Shown piece by piece: positions 2,495 to 41,088 of a stretch of DNA of 64,000 nucleotides. A program made the position numbers and the translations under genes. The stretch is from the sequence record OQ743992. One strand, 5' to 3'. This DNA is from Escherichia phage vB_EfeM_pEP20. The notes under the pieces were generated by a model. That model was not told the DNA's origin and did not search any database. It worked only from the letters and a program-made list of their open reading frames with translations. The stretch's first letter is position 1. Every line of letters starts with the position of its first letter.

Positions 2495-2566
2495 TTTAGA
2501 ATCTCCTAGTTTAAGGATTTTATTTAGTGGGGAAGGTCATTCCCTCCCCGTTGATTGACAATTTAC
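2495..2566 (-). repeat. Type-A intergenic cassette
   Basis: ggggaaggtcattccctcccc hairpin plus GGAGA RBS. Confidence 0.6.
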
Positions 2567-2585
2567 AGATTTTTATCAGGCTTGT

Positions 2586-2882: not shown

Positions 2883-3446
2883 TTAACCTAAAAAGTCTTT
2901 TAAATTGCGCTCTGTGATGTTTGCCGTGATTTTATCCAGCAAGTCACAAAACACGGAACTATCACCGCTATTCTGTACAATTTTCGCCATACTTAACAAA
3001 TCATCGTCAACATAGCCTAAATTGCGGTTAGTTGCATCTGGTACAAAGAAAGGTGCATACATCGCACTAAATTTCGTCGAGTGAAGGCCAATAATCCAAT
3101 TTTTATCAAAGTGTCCGGTAAAGCTGGCGATATCGCTCATGTTGTCACAAGAATAATCATCCTCTAGCTCTTCCTCTGGGATATCCATCTCAATGACAAT
3201 TACGTCCTGCGTTTCCATTTGGAAAGCTGCCGTAATAAGCCCAGATTCTAAAGCGTTTTGAATGCAGCGTTCACGAATGTAAGAATCTTCCTCATCTTCC
3301 AGACATTCCGTTTTGATAATCTTGTTCATTGGGTAAACGTAGAAACAATCATCCATGTAGGAGCAGTTCCAGATTCCTTCTGGCTTGTCACCACCATTCA
3401 GCAAGTTTACAAAGTTTTTGAGGGTAGTGCCGTGATAGCATTTCAT
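2883..3446 (-). CDS. Putative PARP/diphtheria-toxin-like (H-Y-E class) ADP-ribosyltransferase-like protein (187 aa); tentative
   Basis: N-terminal YHGTTLKNFVNLLNGG resembles PARP HGSRTTNFAGILSQG and toxin SYHGT; followed by SYMDDCFYVY (compare YMFGKGIYF) and a candidate catalytic Glu in VIVIEMD; type-B cassette upstream. Confidence 0.4.
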   Translation of the reverse strand: MKCYHGTTLKNFVNLLNGGDKPEGIWNCSYMDDCFYVYPMNKIIKTECLEDEEDSYIRERCIQNALESGLITAAFQMETQDVIVIEMDIPEEELEDDYSCDNMSDIASFTGHFDKNWIIGLHSTKFSAMYAPFFVPDATNRNLGYVDDDLLSMAKIVQNSGDSSVFCDLLDKITANITERNLKDFLG

Positions 3447-3538
3447 TTTTGAATCTCCAGTTTAGGATTTAGCGGTAAAGCTCTTTATCTGGGGCTTAAG
3501 ATATCAACTTTTAAGCCCCCTGTAAAGTACTTTATTAC
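3447..3538 (-). repeat. Type-B intergenic cassette (palindrome GTAAAGTACTTTAC, hairpin GGGGCTTAA...TTAAGCCCC, RBS)
   Basis: About 90-bp element found at 6 sites. Confidence 0.6.
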
Positions 3539-3736: not shown

Positions 3737-3808
3737 TTTAGAATCTCCTAGTTTAAGGACTTTATTTAGTGGGGAAGGTCATTCCCTCCCCGTTGATTAG
3801 TAATTTAC
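3737..3808 (-). repeat. Type-A intergenic cassette
   Basis: Near-identical to the 2495-2566 copy. Confidence 0.6.
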
Positions 3809-3839
3809 TTGTTTTAAAAACCAAAATCAAGAGGAATTT

Positions 3840-4244: not shown

Positions 4245-4329
4245 TTTAGAATCTCCAATTTAGGATTGAGTGATAAAGCTCTTTATCTGGGGCTTACTTT
4301 ATCGAACTATAAGCCCCTTGTAAAGTACT
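4245..4329 (-). repeat. Type-B intergenic cassette (variant loop)
   Basis: ggggcttactttatcgaactataagcccc hairpin plus gtaaagtactttat. Confidence 0.55.
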
Positions 4330-4627: not shown

Positions 4628-4786
4628 TTATTTTGACAGTTCACTAATTAAGACATCAAAGATTATATCATTATCTGCTACAGTTGCAACACCAGTGATA
4701 TAATCAATTTCTAAGATAACAACAACTTTCGTACATAAACCGTCATCTATATCATTCCAGACAACTTTATCACCTGCACAAAACAT
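4628..4786 (-). CDS. Small hypothetical protein (52 aa), absent from the ORF track (below its size cutoff)
   Basis: Hand translation MFCAGDKVVWNDIDDGLCTKVVVILEIDYITGVATVADNDIIFDVLISELSK; ATG preceded by type-A cassette RBS. Confidence 0.35.
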   Translation of the reverse strand: MFCAGDKVVWNDIDDGLCTKVVVILEIDYITGVATVADNDIIFDVLISELSK

Positions 4787-5498: not shown

Positions 5499-5590
5499 TT
5501 TAGAATCTCCTAGTTTAAGGGTTTTATTTGATAAATCTCTTTATCTGGGGCTATCCTACCAGCTTGATAGCCCCGTGTAAAGAGGTCTAT
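5499..5590 (-). repeat. Type-B intergenic cassette (variant)
   Basis: ggggctatcctaccagcttgatagcccc hairpin plus RBS. Confidence 0.5.
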
Positions 5591-6103: not shown

Positions 6104-6193
6104 TTTTGAATCTCCTAGTTTAAGGATTGAGTGGTAAAGCTCTTTATCTGGGGCTTAAGATATCAGCTTTTAAGCCCCCTGTAAAGTACTTTA
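6104..6193 (-). repeat. Type-B intergenic cassette
   Basis: Same element as 3447-3538. Confidence 0.6.
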
Positions 6194-6451: not shown

Positions 6452-6539
6452 TTTAGAATCTCCAATTTAGGATTGAGTGATAAAGCTCTTTATCTGGGGC
6501 TTACTTTATCGAACTATAAGCCCCTTGTAAAGTACTTTA
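6452..6539 (-). repeat. Type-B intergenic cassette
   Basis: Near-identical to 4245-4329. Confidence 0.6.
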
Positions 6540-6920: not shown

Positions 6921-7009
6921 TTTTGAATCTCCTAGTTTAAGGTTAATGTAGTAAAGCTCTTTATCTGGGGCTTAAGATATCAGCTTTTAAGCCCCCTGTA
7001 AAGTACTTT
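6921..7009 (-). repeat. Type-B intergenic cassette
   Basis: Same element as 6104-6193. Confidence 0.6.
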
Positions 7010-7216: not shown

Positions 7217-7472
7217 TTTTGGATTCTCCAGTTTAGGAAGTGGGCTGGCTTGCCCGTCTGATGCAAATATTAGATAACCATACTCAAAGAGTCAATAGGA
7301 ATTTTAAAAATATTTTTGCAAAAAACTGTAATGAAACGGGCGCACGCGACTACCACAAAACAGAACTACAATCAAGAATTATTTTTCAATCAGCTACAAA
7401 TTTTTCTGTTGACTTTTCTTTTCAGATGTGGTAGCCTTGTGAGAAATGGCGACATCCCCACCTGCACCCACC

Positions 7473-7651
7473 TACCTGCACAATTCTAAAATGATTTTTC
7501 TTGCCCGACCTGAGCGGGGTCTGCACGTTTTGAAAATAAAAAAACCCTTTGGAGATTACCTGCACAGTTTGAAAATGAATTTTCTCTTTGGAGTTCAAAA
7601 TTTTCTCTATAGATTTCTCTACAGAACTCTACCTGCACAAATCTGAAATGA
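7473..7651. promoter_or_regulatory. Three direct copies of 22-bp motif TACCTGCACA(a/g)(a/t)T(c/t)TGAAAATGA at ~7473, 7557 and 7630, in a 500-bp intergenic region
   Basis: Read directly; about 80-bp spacing; candidate promoter or operator sites between two minus-strand gene blocks. Confidence 0.4.
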
Positions 7652-7724
7652 AAAAGCCCTCCTTACCTGAAAAATTTACCAGATAAGAAAGGCTTAGTCT
7701 ATTGTGAATATACTACGAAGTTTC

Positions 7725-8510
7725 TTAGTTCTTTGCGTCTAAGAAGGTAAGCTCTGGTGAAGAGAAGATTAACTCAATATCCTCATCAGTTCTTGCATAG
7801 ATATAAGCATCTGCATCACTGCCAAATGTTACTGCAATTCTGTGATTGCTCTTCGACAGGTGGGTAACTAGAGCGTTACTTAGAGACATCTTTTCAACCG
7901 GAGGGTTACTTTGATGTATCTTGCCTTTTCTTCGTCTGAAGAGGGTAACTGCATCATTAGTGAACACTACTACACCTGCAAAGTATTCTGGTTCACAGTA
8001 GTTCTTCCAACCTGAGCGTAACTTGTGGTACATCTCTCCTTCATAGACATATAGATACACATCTACACTCTTCATCACTTGATTAATGATAACTGTGACG
8101 GCTTGAGGGTCTAGTCCACCGATACCTGCACCAATCATAGGTAACCCAACTTTCTTCAACTGATTGACTTCACAGTATCTGTTAAGCTGTTTCAAAGATG
8201 ACTCTAAAGCACTGTATCGGGCATCTTTACCAGTCTTAAGCTGAGTGTAAAGGTTAGCTATACGACCTTGTTTTAAACGTGCTACAGAGAAATTACCTAG
8301 CAAATTTTCACAGGGTTTGTAGCCTATACCACCTGCATACAGATAAACTTCTGTATCAGTCTCATATGCTTTTGGGTAAAGTTTAGAAATCTTGTCAGCG
8401 ATACCTGCACCCATTAAGTTCATACAGTTGCAACCGTGACCGATGACGTCAAACTTACCTTTATCAAATGCTGCAAAGATATCACCATTGATGATTTTTA
8501 CAATACCCAT
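7725..8510 (-). CDS. Macrodomain protein (TARG1/OARD1- and DarG-like N-terminal domain plus about 110-aa C-terminal domain of unknown function)
   Basis: GDIF...HGCNCMNLMGAGIA and LPMIGAGIGGL resemble TARG1 GDLF...MGAGIA and MPRIGCGL; last gene of a coupled operon. Confidence 0.6.
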   Translation of the reverse strand: MGIVKIINGDIFAAFDKGKFDVIGHGCNCMNLMGAGIADKISKLYPKAYETDTEVYLYAGGIGYKPCENLLGNFSVARLKQGRIANLYTQLKTGKDARYSALESSLKQLNRYCEVNQLKKVGLPMIGAGIGGLDPQAVTVIINQVMKSVDVYLYVYEGEMYHKLRSGWKNYCEPEYFAGVVVFTNDAVTLFRRRKGKIHQSNPPVEKMSLSNALVTHLSKSNHRIAVTFGSDADAYIYARTDEDIELIFSSPELTFLDAKN

Positions 8511-8711
8511 TTAACATCTCTCCCAAGATTCTTTATCTTCTGAAGGTTTTACACGTTGTCCTTCGTGGTCTACCCAGATACACCCGCAGCCTTCACAGAT
8601 TACTGGCATTGCATAACCAGCTTTAAAGTCGTCTTCAGTGATAAGACCTTTTAAGTCTCCTGTATCACGTCCGAACATTTCGATAGAACAGTCTTTGCAG
8701 AAGTCAGCCAC
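8511..8711 (-). CDS. Small Cys-rich (zinc-ribbon-like) protein (66 aa)
   Basis: CKDC...CEGCGC; GTG start overlapping the upstream stop; its stop abuts the macrodomain ATG. Confidence 0.45.
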   Translation of the reverse strand: MADFCKDCSIEMFGRDTGDLKGLITEDDFKAGYAMPVICEGCGCIWVDHEGQRVKPSEDKESWERC

Positions 8712-8937
8712 GAATAATTACCTCTTGAGTGATAATACCTTTACCACAACGACTTTTAAAATCTTCTAATGGTTCAGAGAAGAAGTCACGGAAATGGTTA
8801 CTACACTCACGTTTCAGCACCTTCTTGTAAGTTAACACATCTTTTTCTGCAAACGGGATGACTTCATTTCTCCCTATGAATACTGCTGAACTTACAATCT
8901 TACGAGTCTTTTTATTTCTGGCTAGTATTACTTTCAT
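8704..8937 (-). CDS. Hypothetical protein (77 aa)
   Basis: ORF in translationally coupled chain. Confidence 0.4.
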   Translation of the reverse strand: MKVILARNKKTRKIVSSAVFIGRNEVIPFAEKDVLTYKKVLKRECSNHFRDFFSEPLEDFKSRCGKGIITQEVIIRG

Positions 8938-9238
8938 AGTTTACCTTCTCAGTTAGCTCATATAAATCAACATGCTCAATATTGTCAATGTTGATATTAA
9001 TCTTTTTGAAACGTTCTATCACTTCGTTGTCAGTCATCCATATTAGACACCAATGATTCTGAATGGATTCTTCAAGAAGGTCAACACAATCTTTAAAAGT
9101 TTTTGTATCACTTCTCGTTCCGACTACTGCGATTGTTCCATATAACCACTTACCATTACCATAAGTTACTTGTGCTACACCAACTTCTTTATCATTCTCA
9201 TAGTAAACGGCTACAAAATCTCTTCCATTAATCTGCAT
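8912..9238 (-). CDS. Hypothetical protein (about 108 aa)
   Basis: Start moved to ATG (MQINGRDF...) preceded by GAGGAG 7 nt upstream. Confidence 0.4.
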   Translation of the reverse strand: MQINGRDFVAVYYENDKEVGVAQVTYGNGKWLYGTIAVVGTRSDTKTFKDCVDLLEESIQNHWCLIWMTDNEVIERFKKININIDNIEHVDLYELTEKVNYESNTSQK

Positions 9239-9542
9239 TTGTAAGCTCCTCTGTTGGTAACTCACCATTTTCAGCAAAGTACTGAAGGTATGGCAATAAC
9301 TCTTTCACCTGTTCTTGGTTGAGTTTCATTCTTTGGTTACCTACAAAATCTTTGCCTACTAATGCTGGGATATCAAGTGTTTTCCAGCCACCATCTAGGT
9401 ACTGAACAGAGACCTCTTTAGCACCTAACCAGATACATGGTTCATATGATGAACTTTCTTGTAAAGTACAAATCTCTCCTTTAGCATCTTTAAATTCTGC
9501 ATAAGAAAATCCACGATTTGTTGGCTGGAATTGCATAATCAT
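9228..9542 (-). CDS. Hypothetical protein (104 aa)
   Basis: ATGA start/stop overlap with the upstream gene. Confidence 0.45.
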   Translation of the reverse strand: MIMQFQPTNRGFSYAEFKDAKGEICTLQESSSYEPCIWLGAKEVSVQYLDGGWKTLDIPALVGKDFVGNQRMKLNQEQVKELLPYLQYFAENGELPTEELTNAD

Positions 9543-9808
9543 TTCCTCGTTTTAAGAACTGCTAAGATTTCTTTAGAGTCTGGTAAGAACCATGTGTAGT
9601 GATTCTCTTTGATTTCTGGATGAGTGTCAACCTTTATTTTGCACTCTTTACCAACATGCTTAAGCTGTGCTGTGACACCTTGCATAAAGATATGGCACAT
9701 CACGTTATCCATAATGGTTGGTGAGAAATCAACCCGCATATAAGTTTCTTTTGGTCGTGGTAGTAGTAAGTACCCTTCTACATAGAAAGTATCTTCATTC
9801 TCTGTCAT
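9539..9808 (-). CDS. Hypothetical protein (89 aa)
   Basis: ATGA overlap with the lipoprotein gene stop. Confidence 0.45.
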   Translation of the reverse strand: MTENEDTFYVEGYLLLPRPKETYMRVDFSPTIMDNVMCHIFMQGVTAQLKHVGKECKIKVDTHPEIKENHYTWFLPDSKEILAVLKTRK

Positions 9809-10074
9809 TGCTGTTTGTTTCCTAATAAAATCATATCAATAAGGTTATTAGCTTTGATTGTGCACTGGTAAAAACCATCACGATAAAACTCAAGGGCTGC
9901 TGCCACATCGCTGCCAGTATTACCTTTGACAGTGAATCTTGATTCTTCTTGAGTGTACTTGTCACTCTCACTTACTTGGGAGTTTTTGAATGTACTGTTC
10001 ACTTTGTTCGTTGAACACCCTGACATAATTATCAGTAACACAAACATTATAAAACTCTGGCTTAGTCTTTTCAT
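9805..10074 (-). CDS. Lipoprotein (signal peptide plus lipobox IMSGC); o-spanin-like position, embedded in the 3' end of the upstream TM-protein gene
   Basis: MKRLSQSFIMFVLLIIMSGC; own RBS AGAGGT; 107-nt out-of-frame overlap with 9968-10315. Confidence 0.45.
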   Translation of the reverse strand: MKRLSQSFIMFVLLIIMSGCSTNKVNSTFKNSQVSESDKYTQEESRFTVKGNTGSDVAAALEFYRDGFYQCTIKANNLIDMILLGNKQQ

Positions 10075-10315
10075 ACGTTAGTACCTCTTTTGTGTGCTTA
10101 TTCTTAGCAAGCACATCTTTCAAATCATTTTTGTAATTGGTGCTGAGTGTGGCTAAACCTTCCTGATAAGCATCTTTAGCAACACTTATTAGTTTCTCAT
10201 TATTTAGCTCAGCTTCAGCAACTTGGTAGTCTCTGTAAGAGTATCCTCCCCAGACACCTGCCCCAACTAAGAAAACAATTATGAAAGTAGCTTGGCAGAA
10301 CTCTTTAAATGTCAT
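9968..10315 (-). CDS. N-terminally membrane-anchored coiled-coil protein (i-spanin-like), 115 aa
   Basis: TM helix FIIVFLVGAGVWGG then helical region; RBS caGGAGAttgttaaATG; first gene after a terminator. Confidence 0.4.
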   Translation of the reverse strand: MTFKEFCQATFIIVFLVGAGVWGGYSYRDYQVAEAELNNEKLISVAKDAYQEGLATLSTNYKNDLKDVLAKNKHTKEVLTYEKTKPEFYNVCVTDNYVRVFNEQSEQYIQKLPSK

Positions 10316-10334: not shown

Positions 10335-10355
10335 AAAAAGGCTCCCGAAGGAGCC
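10335..10355 (-). terminator. Intrinsic terminator (GGCUCC-UUCG-GGAGCC then U5)
   Basis: Perfect 6-bp stem with tetraloop followed by a U run on minus-strand RNA. Confidence 0.55.
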
Positions 10356-10367
10356 TGTATCTTAACC

Positions 10368-10842: not shown

Positions 10843-11538
10843 TCAATGTTTTACTAACATAGTTTTAATGTGCGGAAGGATTCTGTTTACCTTCTGAACA
10901 TTCTTCTCTGTATCTTCTATAAAACATACTATATTAAAGTAAGGAAGAATGCAAGACTGAATCATCCTCACTTTCAAACTTTCTGCATTTATAGAGTTAG
11001 TTCCAAAACCACGCATAAAAAGCATGTAATCATGCTCTATGTTATGCCTTAAAAACATCTCAGTAGGTATTCTCTGAGATTCACCTCTAGCTGTCAAGAG
11101 TCCAATGGCAGCATGATTAGCAATTGCATCAATGATACTGAAAACATACGTTGGTTTTGCTCTTACAGAGTCAAGAAGATTAGTGTACTGTGAGAATGAC
11201 CCATCAGTCAATTCCGTTGAGCAATCTTCGTGATTAAAATTTGTAAGAACACCATCAATATCTGCTAAGATGAGGTTACCTTTTTCTACAAGGTCTTTAT
11301 TGACTATGACTAAACTGTCACGTCTTACACCTATAGATTGTCCAGTCTCTTTGTCCACAACGTTCACAATTAGTTCTGATGTGTGGAACTCTTCAAGTGA
11401 ACATACAACTTCTCTTGCAGTATCTTCAAAATCTCTGCACTGTTCTGGAGTCCATACACAGGAATCAAGACCTAACTCATGAGAATGCAAGTCGTAAGCA
11501 TGGCACAGTACTTCATCAGACTTTCTTAATTTTTTCAT
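10843..11538 (-). CDS. HAD-superfamily phosphatase-like protein (231 aa)
   Basis: Motif I ILADIDGVLT (DxDG) and LLTARGE. Confidence 0.5.
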   Translation of the reverse strand: MKKLRKSDEVLCHAYDLHSHELGLDSCVWTPEQCRDFEDTAREVVCSLEEFHTSELIVNVVDKETGQSIGVRRDSLVIVNKDLVEKGNLILADIDGVLTNFNHEDCSTELTDGSFSQYTNLLDSVRAKPTYVFSIIDAIANHAAIGLLTARGESQRIPTEMFLRHNIEHDYMLFMRGFGTNSINAESLKVRMIQSCILPYFNIVCFIEDTEKNVQKVNRILPHIKTMLVKH

Positions 11539-12064
11539 GATTTACCTTAGAAATGTTTGTTGCAAATTCACATTGAGCGATGACTTTCATGTTGTTATAG
11601 ACATCTTGAGAGTATTTCTTAGCTTTAGGAATTTTGTACGAATACCCAGCATTATAAGATGCTAGAACTTTTTGTAAAGTCTTCTTTGACTTTGGCTGAC
11701 CATGTACCTTCGTCCAAAACTCAAGCTCTTTGTGTGTTTCTTTTGCGGCATAATCAAAATCTTTTAAAAGTTTCTTTTTAGCCACATTAGGACTAATTTT
11801 GTTACGCTTTACAACAGTCTTCAAGTGATTCTGGAAAATACCATAGTCATGGGTCTTTTTATTCTCTACCTTCAGACCTAACTCTGACTCTTGTAAGGCT
11901 ATAGCAGCTAGAGTGATACCCCAACCTTTACCCATATTATTCTCACCATACTGGTAAGCTTTTAACATGTTTACTTTTTGGCTAATTGATAGCTCTGGGC
12001 AGTCAACTGCATAAGATAAGTGTGCTGTAAACATTAAGCACAAACCTAGAATCAATTTCTTCAT
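11516..12064 (-). CDS. Secreted lytic transglycosylase (SLT-domain) protein with cleavable signal peptide
   Basis: MKKLILGLCLMFTAHLSYA signal; QESELG...DYGIFQ and ASYNAGYSY resemble SLT motifs ES...GLMQ and AYNAG. Confidence 0.55.
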   Translation of the reverse strand: MKKLILGLCLMFTAHLSYAVDCPELSISQKVNMLKAYQYGENNMGKGWGITLAAIALQESELGLKVENKKTHDYGIFQNHLKTVVKRNKISPNVAKKKLLKDFDYAAKETHKELEFWTKVHGQPKSKKTLQKVLASYNAGYSYKIPKAKKYSQDVYNNMKVIAQCEFATNISKVNHEKIKKV

Positions 12065-12126
12065 TGGTTCTCCTGTTTAGTTTATCGTGACATCAATTAT
12101 ACAGCACTCTGCACAAAATACAAATA

Positions 12127-40869: not shown

Positions 40870-41088
40870 ATGACACTTTCAGAGATTGAAGTTCAGTTGC
40901 AATGTGCAGGTTATTCTCAAAAAGAGATTGAAGGGATGTTTATTGTTCTTTGCAGTAGCTGTAGGAATTTGAAGGTAAACCCTGAAGTTCTACGTAGAGT
41001 AGATATCTTTATTGCTGGAGGTAAAATCGCAAAAGATAAGACAGGCTACTTAAAAGGTGAGCGTGTAAATATTGAGAGTTTACTATGA
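40870..41088 (+). CDS. Small protein (72 aa), paralog of 41291-41503
   Basis: RBS AGGAGG; shared C-terminal IAGGKIAKDKTGYLKGERVNIE with the paralog. Confidence 0.5.
   Translation: MTLSEIEVQLQCAGYSQKEIEGMFIVLCSSCRNLKVNPEVLRRVDIFIAGGKIAKDKTGYLKGERVNIESLL

What the first reader, a model, noticed from the sequence alone, without database searches (positions are those of the whole stretch)
7725..10315. Eight-gene translationally coupled operon ending in a TARG1/DarG-like macrodomain fusion protein
Genes from 10315 down to 7725 are chained by overlapping stop/start codons (ATGA or GTG overlaps), starting right after a terminator. The last gene encodes a macrodomain with GDIF...HGCNCMNLMGAGIA and LPMIGAGIGGL (the TARG1/OARD1 and DarG subclass, not MacroD) fused to a 110-aa unknown domain, preceded by a zinc-ribbon protein. 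DarG-type macrodomains remove ADP-ribose from DNA, so this could be a counter-defence eraser against DarT-like or other ADP-ribosylating immunity, or a partner of the putative ART at 2883-3446. The other six products have no recognisable motifs.
Basis: partly seen in the sequence, partly recalled or inferred. Interest (0 to 1): 0.8.

Follow-up and report, generated by a model that had tools for sequence, protein, structure and literature searches.

The report
Felix O1 AdfM-like macrodomain gene block
This is the known ORF6-ORF13 block of a Felix O1-like phage: two lysis (spanin) genes, five small genes of unknown function, and a macrodomain enzyme related to phage T4's anti-DarTG2 factor that carries an extra, uncharacterised tail domain.

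Summary
The window is a Felixounavirus. The eight tightly packed minus-strand genes at 7725-10315 are real and correspond to Felix O1 ORF6-ORF13, bounded by the published terminators t5 and t13.

The last gene (261 aa) has a confidently modelled macro fold. Its closest solved relatives are TARG1, Poa1p, DarG, BT1257 and SCO6735, not MacroD. The catalytic lysine of TARG1 and DarG is replaced by an invariant glutamine (Q90). SCO6735 has the same substitution and has been shown to cleave thymidine-linked ADP-ribose from DNA.

The macro core is 34% identical to T4 Tk.4 (AdfM), which T4 needs to grow on a DarTG2 host. The Felix O1 orthologue peaks 5 min after infection, and the SUSP1 orthologue is dispensable on a lab host. 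An early anti-DarT2 DNA de-ADP-ribosylase is therefore the best reading (about 0.55).

The 104-aa C-terminal domain has no fold or sequence relative outside Ounavirinae macro fusions. Erwinia-type relatives carry an unrelated tail instead.

The block is mosaic and probably not one functional system. The proposed ADP-ribosyltransferase partner at 2883-3446 has no support. Interest is moderate to low.

The parts
10339..10356 (-). Upstream intrinsic terminator (AGGCTCC-TTCG-GGAGCCT plus T-run), 23 nt before the first ATG. It is modest in strength and probably leaky.
   Evidence: scan. fold: dG -14 kcal/mol, z -1.2. The sequence is identical to Felix O1 terminator t5.
9968..10315 (-). Gene 1: i-spanin (115 aa, N-terminal TM segment FIIVFLVGAGVWGGYSY).
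   Evidence: PHROG 1152 'Rz-like spanin', E 8.9e-42. Annotated as i-spanin in nataliec, SME50 and Felix O1.
9805..10074 (-). Gene 2: o-spanin lipoprotein (89 aa, or 73 aa from the internal ATG; lipobox MSG-C). It overlaps the i-spanin gene in another frame.
   Evidence: sequence. PHROG 4180, plus PHROG 456 'Rz-like spanin' at E 6e-5. Lipoprotein-type NCBIfam hits. Annotated as o-spanin.
9539..9808 (-). Gene 3: 89-aa protein of unknown function (Felix O1 ORF8). Its start overlaps the previous stop as ATGA.
   Evidence: PHROG 4391, unknown function. No Pfam or NCBIfam match. SUSP1 orthologue agp088 is 'Not Fit'.
9228..9542 (-). Gene 4: 104-aa acidic protein of unknown function in a variable slot. 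It is absent in L004 and replaced by unrelated agp089 and agp090 in SUSP1.
8912..9238 (-). Gene 5: 108-aa protein of unknown function (ATG at 9238; the TTG extension to 9277 is unlikely). It contains the candidate internal promoter P11.
   Evidence: PHROG 4453 matches residues 14-121 of the long ORF. Relatives annotate it as 108 aa. No PDB match.
8961..8988 (-). Candidate sigma-70 promoter 'P11' (TTGACA-N13-TGATTTATA) inside gene 5, upstream of gene 6. It could drive an early sub-unit made of gene 6, the Zn-ribbon gene and the macro gene.
   Evidence: The sequence is read. The promoter was predicted for Felix O1 by Whichard et al. 2010. The timing data are consistent with it. It has not been tested experimentally.
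8704..8937 (-). Gene 6: 77-aa basic protein of unknown function. It is replaced by a DNA-dissimilar 75-aa gene in L004.
   Evidence: PHROG 6082..
8511..8711 (-). Gene 7: 66-aa acidic zinc-ribbon-like protein (C5-x2-C8 ... C39-x2-C42, GTG start).
   Evidence: PHROG 2210, unknown function. It is 100% identical in L004 even though the adjacent macro allele there is only 41% identical. SUSP1 orthologue agp093 is 'Not Fit'.
8040..8510 (-). Gene 8, residues 1-157: macrodomain of the ALC1/TARG1-like class, Gln-type (H25-G-C-N28-C, M33-G-A-G-I-A, N86-L-Y-T-Q90, P124-x-I-G-A-G-I).
   Evidence: Pfam Macro, 32.2 bits against a cut-off of 22. AF2 pLDDT 92.7. Foldseek and profile hits. 34% identity to T4 Tk.4. 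Invariant residues from alignments A1 and A6.
7725..8039 (-). Gene 8, residues 158-261 plus the stop codon: beta-rich C-terminal domain with no known fold or family.
7654..7695 (-). Strong downstream intrinsic terminator (17-bp stem plus T-run) that closes the block.
   Evidence: dG -26.2 kcal/mol, z -6.2, 0 of 200 shuffles as stable. It equals Felix O1 terminator t13.

Best explanation
The 261-aa product of 7725-8510 is an early-expressed, accessory ADP-ribosyl hydrolase of the T4 Tk.4 (AdfM) family. It is an ALC1/TARG1-like macrodomain whose catalytic lysine is replaced by glutamine.

Proposed mechanism (inferred): it strips ADP-ribose that a host DarT2-type toxin puts on thymidines of single-stranded phage DNA, which keeps replication going on hosts that carry DarTG2.

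Shown here: the fold, the class, the conserved ADP-ribose-site residues, and homology to T4 Tk.4. Taken from the literature: T4 Tk.4 is required on DarTG2 hosts; a Gln-type macrodomain (SCO6735) hydrolyses dT-ADPr DNA; Felix O1 ORF13 peaks at 5 min; the SUSP1 orthologue is non-essential on a lab host.

The fused roughly 104-aa C-terminal domain is a lineage-specific add-on. It is inferred, with weak support only, to give substrate or toxin targeting.

The other seven genes are co-packed neighbours rather than partners: an i-/o-spanin lysis pair, four small unknowns and a Zn-ribbon protein. They probably form the distal part of a read-through unit that starts after the rIIB terminator, possibly with an internal promoter (P11) serving the last three genes.
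For: Identity of the window and block:
- The window is 92.9-96.6% identical to the 25 best-listed Felix O1-like phages. The block equals Felix O1 ORF6-13.

Fold and class:
- Macro fold modelled with pLDDT 92.7 and pTM 0.89.
- Top Foldseek hits: TARG1 (TM 0.86), Poa1p, Taq DarG (0.84), Mtb DarG, BT1257.
- A family profile hits only this class: TARG1 7e-17, BT1257 5e-16, SCO6735 5.5e-15, Poa1p, DarG.
- The best NCBIfam model is antitoxin_DarG, E 1.7e-12, covering the macro part only.

Link to T4 Tk.4:
- T4 Tk.4 is 34% identical over the whole macro domain, E 2e-24, and shares every invariant motif. Both fall in PHROG 335.
- T4 tk.4 is the single hit required on DarTG2, and a clean knockout is sensitised (preprint 10.1101/2025.11.20.689424).
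- PhiKZ AdfM removes DarT2 marks in vitro (PMC13309987). Its N23 aligns with N28 here.

The Gln substitution:
- Invariant Q90 sits where TARG1 has K84 and PhiKZ AdfM has K78.
- SCO6735 has Gln85 at that position, Q85A is inactive, and the enzyme cleaves dT-ADPr DNA and protects from DarT (PMC9411070).

Expression and dispensability:
- Felix O1 ORF13 is maximally expressed at 5 min (PMC3185647).
- SUSP1 orthologue agp094 (63% identical) is 'Not Fit' on a lab host.

Allele replacement:
- A 41%-identical allele sits in flanks that are 82-95% identical at the DNA level and next to a 100%-identical Zn-ribbon gene. This pattern is typical of arms-race genes.
Against: No experiment exists on this orthologue or any Ounavirinae member. 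At 34% identity to T4 Tk.4, substrate specificity could differ.

The T4 result is genetic and comes from a preprint. Hydrolysis by a Tk.4-type (Gln) phage macrodomain has not been shown biochemically.

The N-terminal H-x-C-N-C...G-x-G-I-A motif matches Poa1p best, which is a small-molecule ADPr-1''-phosphatase and OAADPr deacetylase.

The gene lies in a unit with spanins that peak at 25 min, and a PNKP-like HAD phosphatase is 2.3 kb upstream. This would also suit an RNA-repair or metabolite role.

The CTD shows no conserved charge (net -5 to +4) and almost no invariant residues, so nothing points to DNA or toxin binding.
Confidence: 0.55

Rival explanations
1. Small-molecule ADP-ribose processing. 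On this reading the enzyme is a Poa1p-like ADP-ribose-1''-phosphate phosphatase or O-acetyl-ADP-ribose deacetylase. It would clear by-products of RNA repair or NAD+ turnover, in line with the database label 'phosphatase'.
For: The N-terminal motif HGCNC..MGAGIA aligns best with Poa1p H23-S-C-N-C..GGGIA. Poa1p is among the top fold and profile hits. A PNKP-like HAD phosphatase lies upstream in the same direction. Felix O1 carries PRPP synthetase and NAD-related genes. The viral-macro survey notes that substrates cannot be told apart from sequence alone (PMC9503650).
Against: Poa1p Ser30 is not conserved (L32 here). No Tpt1/KptA or 2H enzyme was detected among the neighbours scanned. The closest characterised homologue, T4 Tk.4, has a defence-specific phenotype. 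The 'phosphatase' name is inherited from the old A1pp label.
Confidence: 0.15
2. Eraser for a different ADP-ribosylating or ADPr-signalling defence. Candidates are mRNA ADP-ribosylation by CmdT-like toxins, protein-targeting ART toxins, or degradation or sequestration of Thoeris-type ADPr-derived signals. DarT2 would not be the target.
For: The macro fold and ADPr-site residues are conserved. ALC1-like macrodomains act on several linkages (PMC11833690; PMC9411070). The gene is an early, dispensable, mosaic accessory gene.
Against: No specific evidence points to these targets. SCO6735 was inactive on 2'-OH RNA ADPr. The only phenotype known for the family is anti-DarTG2.
Confidence: 0.15
3. Largely non-catalytic antitoxin mimic. 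The protein would neutralise a toxin by binding it, through the macro cleft or the C-terminal domain, as DarG's second domain and ICP1 AdfB do. The Gln substitution would then reflect loss of hydrolysis.
For: The catalytic Lys is absent. Catalytically dead SCO6735 Q85A still inhibits DarT by interaction. AdfB acts by direct interaction. The extra domain is lineage-specific and fast-evolving, and Erwinia-type relatives carry an unrelated tail in the same position.
Against: The ADPr-site residues (H25, N28, G34-A38, Q90, G127-I130) are invariant across very distant phages, which argues for retained catalysis. The macro-only T4 Tk.4 is sufficient for the phenotype. The CTD does not match the DarG C-terminal region.
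Confidence: 0.1
4. Partner of a phage-encoded ADP-ribosyltransferase (the 187-aa protein at 2883-3446). The macrodomain would reverse or limit the phage's own modification of host targets.
For: T4 does encode both ARTs and Tk.4 (own knowledge).
Against: The 187-aa protein has no Pfam hit at E<=1 and falls in PHROG 3303 with unknown function. It has no PDB match by sequence or by family profile. Its homologues occur only in Ounavirinae, and H5 is not even invariant. It lies 4.3 kb away in a separate cassette-type transcription unit.
Confidence: 0.03

Closest known systems
Phage T4 Tk.4 = AdfM (anti-DarT factor, macrodomain; preprint 10.1101/2025.11.20.689424)
   Same: Same PHROG (335). It is 34% identical over the whole macro domain (E 2e-24) and shares all family-invariant motifs, including NLYTQ. 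Both are accessory genes in the early region of a virulent myovirus.
   Different: T4 Tk.4 is macro-only (155 aa). The Felix O1-type protein adds a roughly 104-aa C-terminal domain. The gene neighbours differ: vs and tk.3 in T4, a Zn-ribbon gene and a terminator here. Only the T4 protein has a demonstrated anti-DarTG2 phenotype.
Streptomyces coelicolor SCO6735 (PDB 5E3B) and Bacteroides BT1257 (2FG1)
   Same: ALC1/TARG1-like macro fold with Gln at the position of the TARG1/DarG catalytic Lys. Profile E-values are 5.5e-15 and 4.8e-16, and the Foldseek TM-score to 2FG1 is 0.82. SCO6735 hydrolyses dT-ADPr DNA and protects from DarT.
   Different: These are cellular, single-domain proteins. The Q90 to Q85 equivalence is by transitive alignment through TARG1 K84, not by direct superposition. 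The SCO6735 DNA-contact lysines (K34, K89) are not conserved here.
DarG2 antitoxin macrodomain (T. aquaticus 5M31/5M3E, M. tuberculosis 5M3I) and PhiKZ gp104 AdfM
   Same: Same macro class. N28 aligns with DarG N22 and PhiKZ N23. DarG is the best NCBIfam model.
   Different: The catalytic K80 (K78 in PhiKZ) is replaced by Q90. Identity to PhiKZ gp104 is only 24%. The NCBIfam score is 47 bits against a cut-off of 250. There is no DarT-binding C-terminal domain and no adjacent DarT gene.
Human TARG1/OARD1 (4J5R)
   Same: Best structural and profile match (TM 0.86, E 7e-17). It shares the H...MGAGIA and P-x-IG-x-G motifs.
   Different: The K84/D125 catalytic dyad corresponds to Q90/G131 here.
Yeast Poa1p (6LFQ-6LFU), an ADP-ribose-1''-phosphate phosphatase and OAADPr deacetylase
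   Same: Near-identical N-terminal motif, H-x-C-N-C-x3-G-x-G-I-A, including catalytic His23 = H25. It is a top-5 fold hit.
   Different: Poa1p Ser30 corresponds to L32. Overall identity is about 22%. Poa1p acts on small molecules, and no link to defence is known for it.
Two-component spanins (lambda Rz/Rz1 type, overlapped arrangement)
   Same: Genes 1 and 2 are an N-terminal-TM i-spanin and a lipobox o-spanin whose gene starts inside the i-spanin gene in another frame.
   Different: The endolysin is elsewhere in Felix O1 (ORF35). The spanins sit in the rII-proximal region rather than in a lysis cassette.

Membership tests
Macro domain superfamily (PF01661) | Profile match above the curated cut-off, and a macro alpha/beta fold | tested here: met
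   Pfam 32.2 bits against a gathering score of 22. AF2 pLDDT 92.7, with 238 PDB matches at E<=1e-3, led by macrodomains.
ALC1/TARG1-like macro class (TARG1, DarG, Poa1p, SCO6735, BT1257), as opposed to MacroD-type | Closest sequence-profile and fold relatives belong to this class | tested here: met
   Family profile A6 hits only this class at E<=0.01. The Foldseek top ranks are the same proteins.
TARG1/OARD1 | Catalytic Lys84/Asp125 dyad | tested here: not met
   K84 corresponds to invariant Q90 and D125 to G131 in phmmer, MAFFT and profile alignments.
DarG antitoxin (NCBIfam NF048014 equivalog) | Whole-protein score above the cut-off | tested here: not met
   47.3 bits against a cut-off of 250. 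Only profile positions 12-153 of 338 are matched.
DarG antitoxin | Catalytic Lys (Taq K80; PhiKZ AdfM K78) | tested here: not met
   PhiKZ K78 aligns with Q90 (BLASTP) or L91 (MAFFT). Neither column holds a conserved Lys.
DarG antitoxin | C-terminal DarT-binding domain and an adjacent darT gene | tested here: not met
SCO6735-type (Gln) dT-ADPr hydrolases | Gln at the position of the TARG1/DarG catalytic Lys | tested here: met
   Q90 is invariant in 31 of 31 (A1) and 13 of 13 (A6) sequences. The equivalence to SCO6735 Q85 is transitive, through TARG1 K84.
SCO6735-type (Gln) dT-ADPr hydrolases | Hydrolysis of thymidine-linked ADP-ribose on ssDNA | not testable with these tools
   Needs a biochemical assay.
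T4 Tk.4 / AdfM family (PHROG 335) | Full-length macro homology with shared invariant motifs | tested here: met
   PHROG 335, E 1.5e-112. BLASTP against T4 Tk.4: 34% identity, E 2e-24. T4 tk.4 is also listed under phrog_335.
T4 Tk.4 / AdfM family | Required for growth on a DarTG2 host | not testable with these tools
   Known only for T4. The SUSP1 orthologue is dispensable without DarTG2, which is consistent but not a test.
Poa1p-type ADPr-1''-phosphatase | Catalytic His23 and Ser30 | tested here: inconclusive
   His23 = H25 is conserved, but Ser30 corresponds to L32.
Two-component spanin | An i-spanin with an N-terminal TM segment, plus an o-spanin lipoprotein whose gene overlaps it | tested here: met
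   PHROG 1152, E 9e-42. Lipobox MSGC at Cys20. Overlap of 107 nt.
Single operon (one transcript, one function) | One promoter, no internal starts, co-expression, co-conservation | tested here: inconclusive
   The packing and flanking terminators fit an operon. Against it: there is no promoter after t5, a candidate internal promoter P11 exists, RT-PCR peaks at 5, 10 and 25 min for different members, and slots 4 and 6 vary between close relatives.

The most novel reading that the evidence does not exclude
The C-terminal ~100-aa tail could be a swappable specificity module. Two unrelated versions occupy the same position in Ounavirinae macro proteins. The tail might bind the DarT toxin, or another host ART, or tether the enzyme to phage DNA or the replisome. 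That would make this an independently evolved two-domain 'orphan DarG' that neutralises the toxin both by erasing its mark and by direct interaction. The upstream Zn-ribbon protein could possibly act as a cofactor.
Probability: 0.15. Interest if true: 0.6.

Novelty: new variant of a known kind. Interest (0 to 1): 0.35.

Why it matters
If the prediction holds, Felix O1-like phages carry a built-in anti-DarTG2 eraser. These phages are widely used for Salmonella and E. coli typing, biocontrol and therapy, so this would help predict host range on DarTG-positive strains.

The family-wide Lys-to-Gln change is shared with T4 Tk.4 and about 2,850 phage records. It implies that most phage 'AdfM-like' macrodomains use the SCO6735-type, lysine-independent chemistry rather than the DarG mechanism. 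That can be tested directly.

The alternative, unrelated C-terminal tails give a handle on how orphan antitoxins acquire specificity.

The rest of the finding is ordinary phage genome organisation that has already been published for Felix O1: the gene packing, the terminators and the spanins.

Tried and rejected
- CTD profile against 1.84 billion representatives: only macro fusions and fragments were real hits. The PQQ beta-propeller and repetitive-protein hits were judged spurious multi-stretch matches.
- Erwinia-type tail: hhalign of the CTD profile against it gave probability 0.1%, so the two tails are unrelated.
- Zn-ribbon partnership: the upstream ORFs of 79 related loci were surveyed. 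A homologous Zn-ribbon gene is seen directly upstream in most Felix O1-type loci, including the two with the 41% allele; in the Suspvirus-type loci the script picked a longer ORF, leaving a 194-nt gap, so a Zn-ribbon gene is only inferred there. One unrelated Zn-ribbon occurs in L005 and one in L053. Macro-only phages have helicase, methylase or signal-peptide genes upstream. A conserved functional pairing is therefore not shown.
- ART hypothesis for 2883-3446: Pfam, PHROG, PDB phmmer and a PDB profile search were all negative.
- Genes 3-6: Pfam, NCBIfam and PHROG gave no function for any of them, and PDB sequence searches of genes 4 and 5 found nothing.
- tRNA scan of the window: none found.
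- Attempt to display a direct alignment to DarG or SCO6735: the PDB output lists only the top five hits, which were all TARG1 entries.
- One viral-contig scan with P0013 timed out.
- CTD charge analysis: no conserved acidic or basic character.

Full report
**What the window is.** The 4.6 kb around the finding is 92.9-96.6% identical to the 25 best-listed phage records, including Salmonella phage Felix O1, and 197 records cover at least 80% of it. The window is therefore a Felixounavirus genome. In Felix O1 coordinates, the eight genes are ORF6-ORF13. They lie downstream of rIIA, rIIB, a T4 Vs.1-like protein, a PNKP-like HAD phosphatase and a 154-aa protein.

**The observation.** Eight minus-strand ORFs occupy 7725-10315.
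- Every junction has a gap of 0 or less: -107 (or -59), -4, -4, -11, -26, -8 and 0 nt. Each start has a plausible Shine-Dalgarno sequence.
- The 13 small genes further downstream are instead mostly separated by spacers of about 85-105 nt. The tight packing is thus a real local feature.
- A hairpin plus T-run sits 23 nt before the first ATG (10356-10339). A much stronger one (7695-7654; dG -26 kcal/mol, z -6.2) follows the last gene.
- Both terminators are identical in sequence to t5 and t13, published for Felix O1 in 2010.
- The quoted macro motifs, the CxxC...CxxC 66-aa protein and the roughly 104-aa extension are all present.

- Gene 1 is an i-spanin (PHROG 1152, E 9e-42, N-terminal TM segment).
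- Gene 2 is an o-spanin (lipobox MSG-C) whose gene starts inside gene 1 in another frame. Relatives annotate both this way.
- Genes 3-6 and the Zn-ribbon protein match only PHROGs of unknown function. They have no Pfam or NCBIfam hits, and genes 4 and 5 have no PDB hits.

**Is it one operon?** This is not established.
- There is no room for a promoter between t5 and the first ATG.
- The nearest convincing promoter lies just after the rIIB terminator (TGTGCAGAGTGCTGTATAAT, about 12110-12090). The block is therefore probably the distal, attenuated part of an 11-gene unit.
- Whichard et al. predicted an internal promoter, P11 (TTGACA-N13-TGATTTATA). It is present here at 8988-8961, upstream of gene 6.
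- Their RT-PCR puts ORF13 (macro) at maximal expression at 5 min, ORF9 and ORF12 at 10 min, and ORF6 and ORF10 at 25 min.
- The block is also mosaic. A metagenomic relative (L004) is 95% identical at the DNA level through gene 3. It lacks gene 4, has an unrelated gene in slot 6, and has a 100% identical Zn-ribbon protein. Its macro allele is only 41% identical from about residue 48 onwards.
- SUSP1 fills slot 4 with two unrelated genes.
- Overall this is a packed row of largely independent accessory genes plus the spanins, not a demonstrable eight-part machine.

**The macrodomain.**
- Pfam Macro scores above its threshold.
- An AlphaFold2 model built on 31 homologues is confident (pLDDT 92.7, pTM 0.89).
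- Foldseek against the PDB ranks TARG1 (TM 0.86), Poa1p, T. aquaticus DarG (0.84), M. tuberculosis DarG and BT1257 first.
- A profile of phage macro-only relatives hits only that class at E<=0.01: TARG1 7e-17, 2AFC, BT1257 4.8e-16, SCO6735 5.5e-15, Poa1p 2.5e-14 and DarG about 1e-13.
- The best NCBIfam model is antitoxin DarG (E 1.7e-12). The score is 47 bits against a cut-off of 250, and only the macro part of the model is matched.

**The active site differs from TARG1 and DarG.**
- In phmmer, MAFFT, BLASTP and profile alignments, TARG1 K84 and PhiKZ AdfM K78 (the equivalent of DarG K80) fall on Q90 of the invariant motif N-L-Y-T-Q. TARG1 D125 falls on G131.
- Q90 is invariant in all 31 homologues and in T4 Tk.4. 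No neighbouring lysine is conserved.
- There is an experimental precedent. S. coelicolor SCO6735 has Gln85 at the same structural position. Q85A is inactive, and the enzyme cleaves thymidine-linked ADP-ribose from DNA and protects against DarT (PMC9411070).
- The N-terminal motif H25-G-C-N28-C...M-G-A-G-I-A is closest to Poa1p, including its catalytic His23 but not its Ser30. N28 aligns with DarG N22 and PhiKZ N23.

**Closest characterised relative.**
- tblastn finds the macro core in 2,850 phage records. Only 257 of them cover at least 80% of the query, that is, include the tail.
- In T-even phages the hit is tk.4, next to vs. T4 Tk.4 is 34% identical over its whole 155 aa (E 2e-24) and belongs to the same PHROG 335.
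- A transposon screen (HIDEN-SEQ preprint) found tk.4 to be the single T4 gene needed on a DarTG2 host. A clean knockout confirmed this, and the gene was named adfM.
- A more distant macrodomain, PhiKZ gp104 (24% identical), removes DarT2 marks from DNA in vitro.
- Three further observations fit a conditionally needed counter-defence gene, although none of them is a test: the early expression of Felix O1 ORF13, the dispensability of the 63%-identical SUSP1 orthologue on a lab host, and the allele replacement seen in L004.
- I put an anti-DarT2 DNA de-ADP-ribosylase role at about 0.55.

**The C-terminal domain.**
- Residues 158-261 are modelled as a beta-rich domain (pLDDT 87-94 in the full model, 81 when modelled alone).
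- An exhaustive profile search of 1.84 billion representatives finds only four clusters of macro fusions and some fragments. The remaining hits are PQQ-propeller or repetitive proteins and are judged spurious.
- It has almost no invariant residues and no conserved charge.
- It shows no similarity to the DarT-binding part of DarG.
- Erwinia-type Ounavirinae carry a 260-aa macro protein whose tail is unrelated to this one (BLASTP negative; hhalign probability 0.1%).
- The tail thus looks like a fast-evolving, exchangeable module. Targeting or toxin binding is a reasonable guess, but it is unsupported.

**Zn-ribbon neighbour.**
- Where the survey script picked up the ORF directly upstream of the macro gene, most Felix O1-type loci carry the homologous Zn-ribbon gene there, including the two loci with the 41% allele. 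In the Suspvirus-type loci the script chose a longer ORF, leaving a 194-nt gap that would fit a Zn-ribbon gene; SUSP1 itself does have a 66-aa PHROG 2210 gene in that position.
- A distant relative (L005) has an unrelated 63-aa CxxC...CxxC protein in the same position.
- L006, T4 and nearly all macro-only phages do not have one.
- The SUSP1 orthologue is non-essential. A functional pairing is possible but has not been shown.

**The proposed ART partner.** The 187-aa protein at 2883-3446 has no Pfam hit and a PHROG of unknown function. It has no PDB match by sequence or by family profile, and its homologues occur only in Ounavirinae. The ART idea rests on a 'YHGT' motif alone.

**Verdict.**
- The counter-defence interpretation is the best available, and it now has a published homologue behind it.
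- The 'eight-gene system' and 'ART partner' readings are not supported.
- The gene itself has been annotated since the Felix O1 genome paper as a Tk.4-like 'phosphatase'.
- What is new is modest: the Gln-type active site links the whole Tk.4 family to SCO6735-like chemistry, and the Ounavirinae versions carry alternative uncharacterised tails.

Noticed in passing
window 2495-2585, 3447-3538, 3737-3839, 4245-4329, 5499-5590, 6104-6193, 6452-6539, 6921-7009 (weaker copy at 7217-7310), minus strand: The spacers between the small genes downstream of the block are copies of one roughly 90-nt regulatory cassette. Each has a -35-like TTTACA, a 9-bp GC hairpin (GGGGCTTAA...TTAAGCCCC) that overlaps a -10-like TATCTT, and a conserved leader ending in CTAGGAGATTCTAAA-ATG. 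They resemble the T4-type 'promoter-early stem-loop' cassettes thought to mediate gene shuffling (own knowledge). None occurs inside the eight-gene block.
   Followed up: partly
window 7217-7724 (gene-free, 508 nt); repeat copies at 7473-7501, 7521-7554, 7557-7593, 7630-7666; also 4772-4780, 40903-40911 and about 12100-12115: Four direct copies of a 29-34-nt unit (minus strand ...ATTTTCAAAnTGTGCAGGTA) lie just after the strong terminator. TGTGCAGGT occurs 5 times in the window against 0.45 expected. A similar TGTGCAGAG box sits immediately upstream of a perfect TATAAT after the rIIB terminator. This may be a phage-specific promoter or activator box, or iterons. Its function is unknown.
   Followed up: partly
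window 9228-9542 (gene 4) and 8704-8937 (gene 6); L004 6259-6800; L009 887-1445: Slots 4 and 6 of the block are hypervariable among close relatives. [quoted passage not shown]
   Followed up: partly
L039 and L040, 2998-3780 (Erwinia-phage-like Ounavirinae contigs): These encode a 260-aa macro protein with a Tk.4-type core (44% identical) and a roughly 105-aa C-terminal tail unrelated to the Felix O1-type tail. An i-spanin-like gene ends about 150 nt upstream of the macro gene.
   Followed up: partly
window 2883-3446, minus strand: The 187-aa protein proposed as an ART is restricted to Ounavirinae and highly conserved there (59 invariant columns).
   Followed up: partly
window 10843-11538 and 11516-12064, minus strand: The protein annotated 'polynucleotide kinase' (231 aa) matches only the HAD phosphatase part (DxDGT motif; PF25109 HAD_PNKP in relatives), with no kinase domain. 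The upstream 182-aa 'lysin' is the T4 Vs.1 homologue. Tk.4-like and Vs.1-like genes are thus linked in both T4 and Felix O1.
   Followed up: no
L004 7001-7143 / window 8368-8510: The recombination junction of the divergent macro allele lies inside the gene, at about codon 48. [quoted passage not shown]
   Followed up: no
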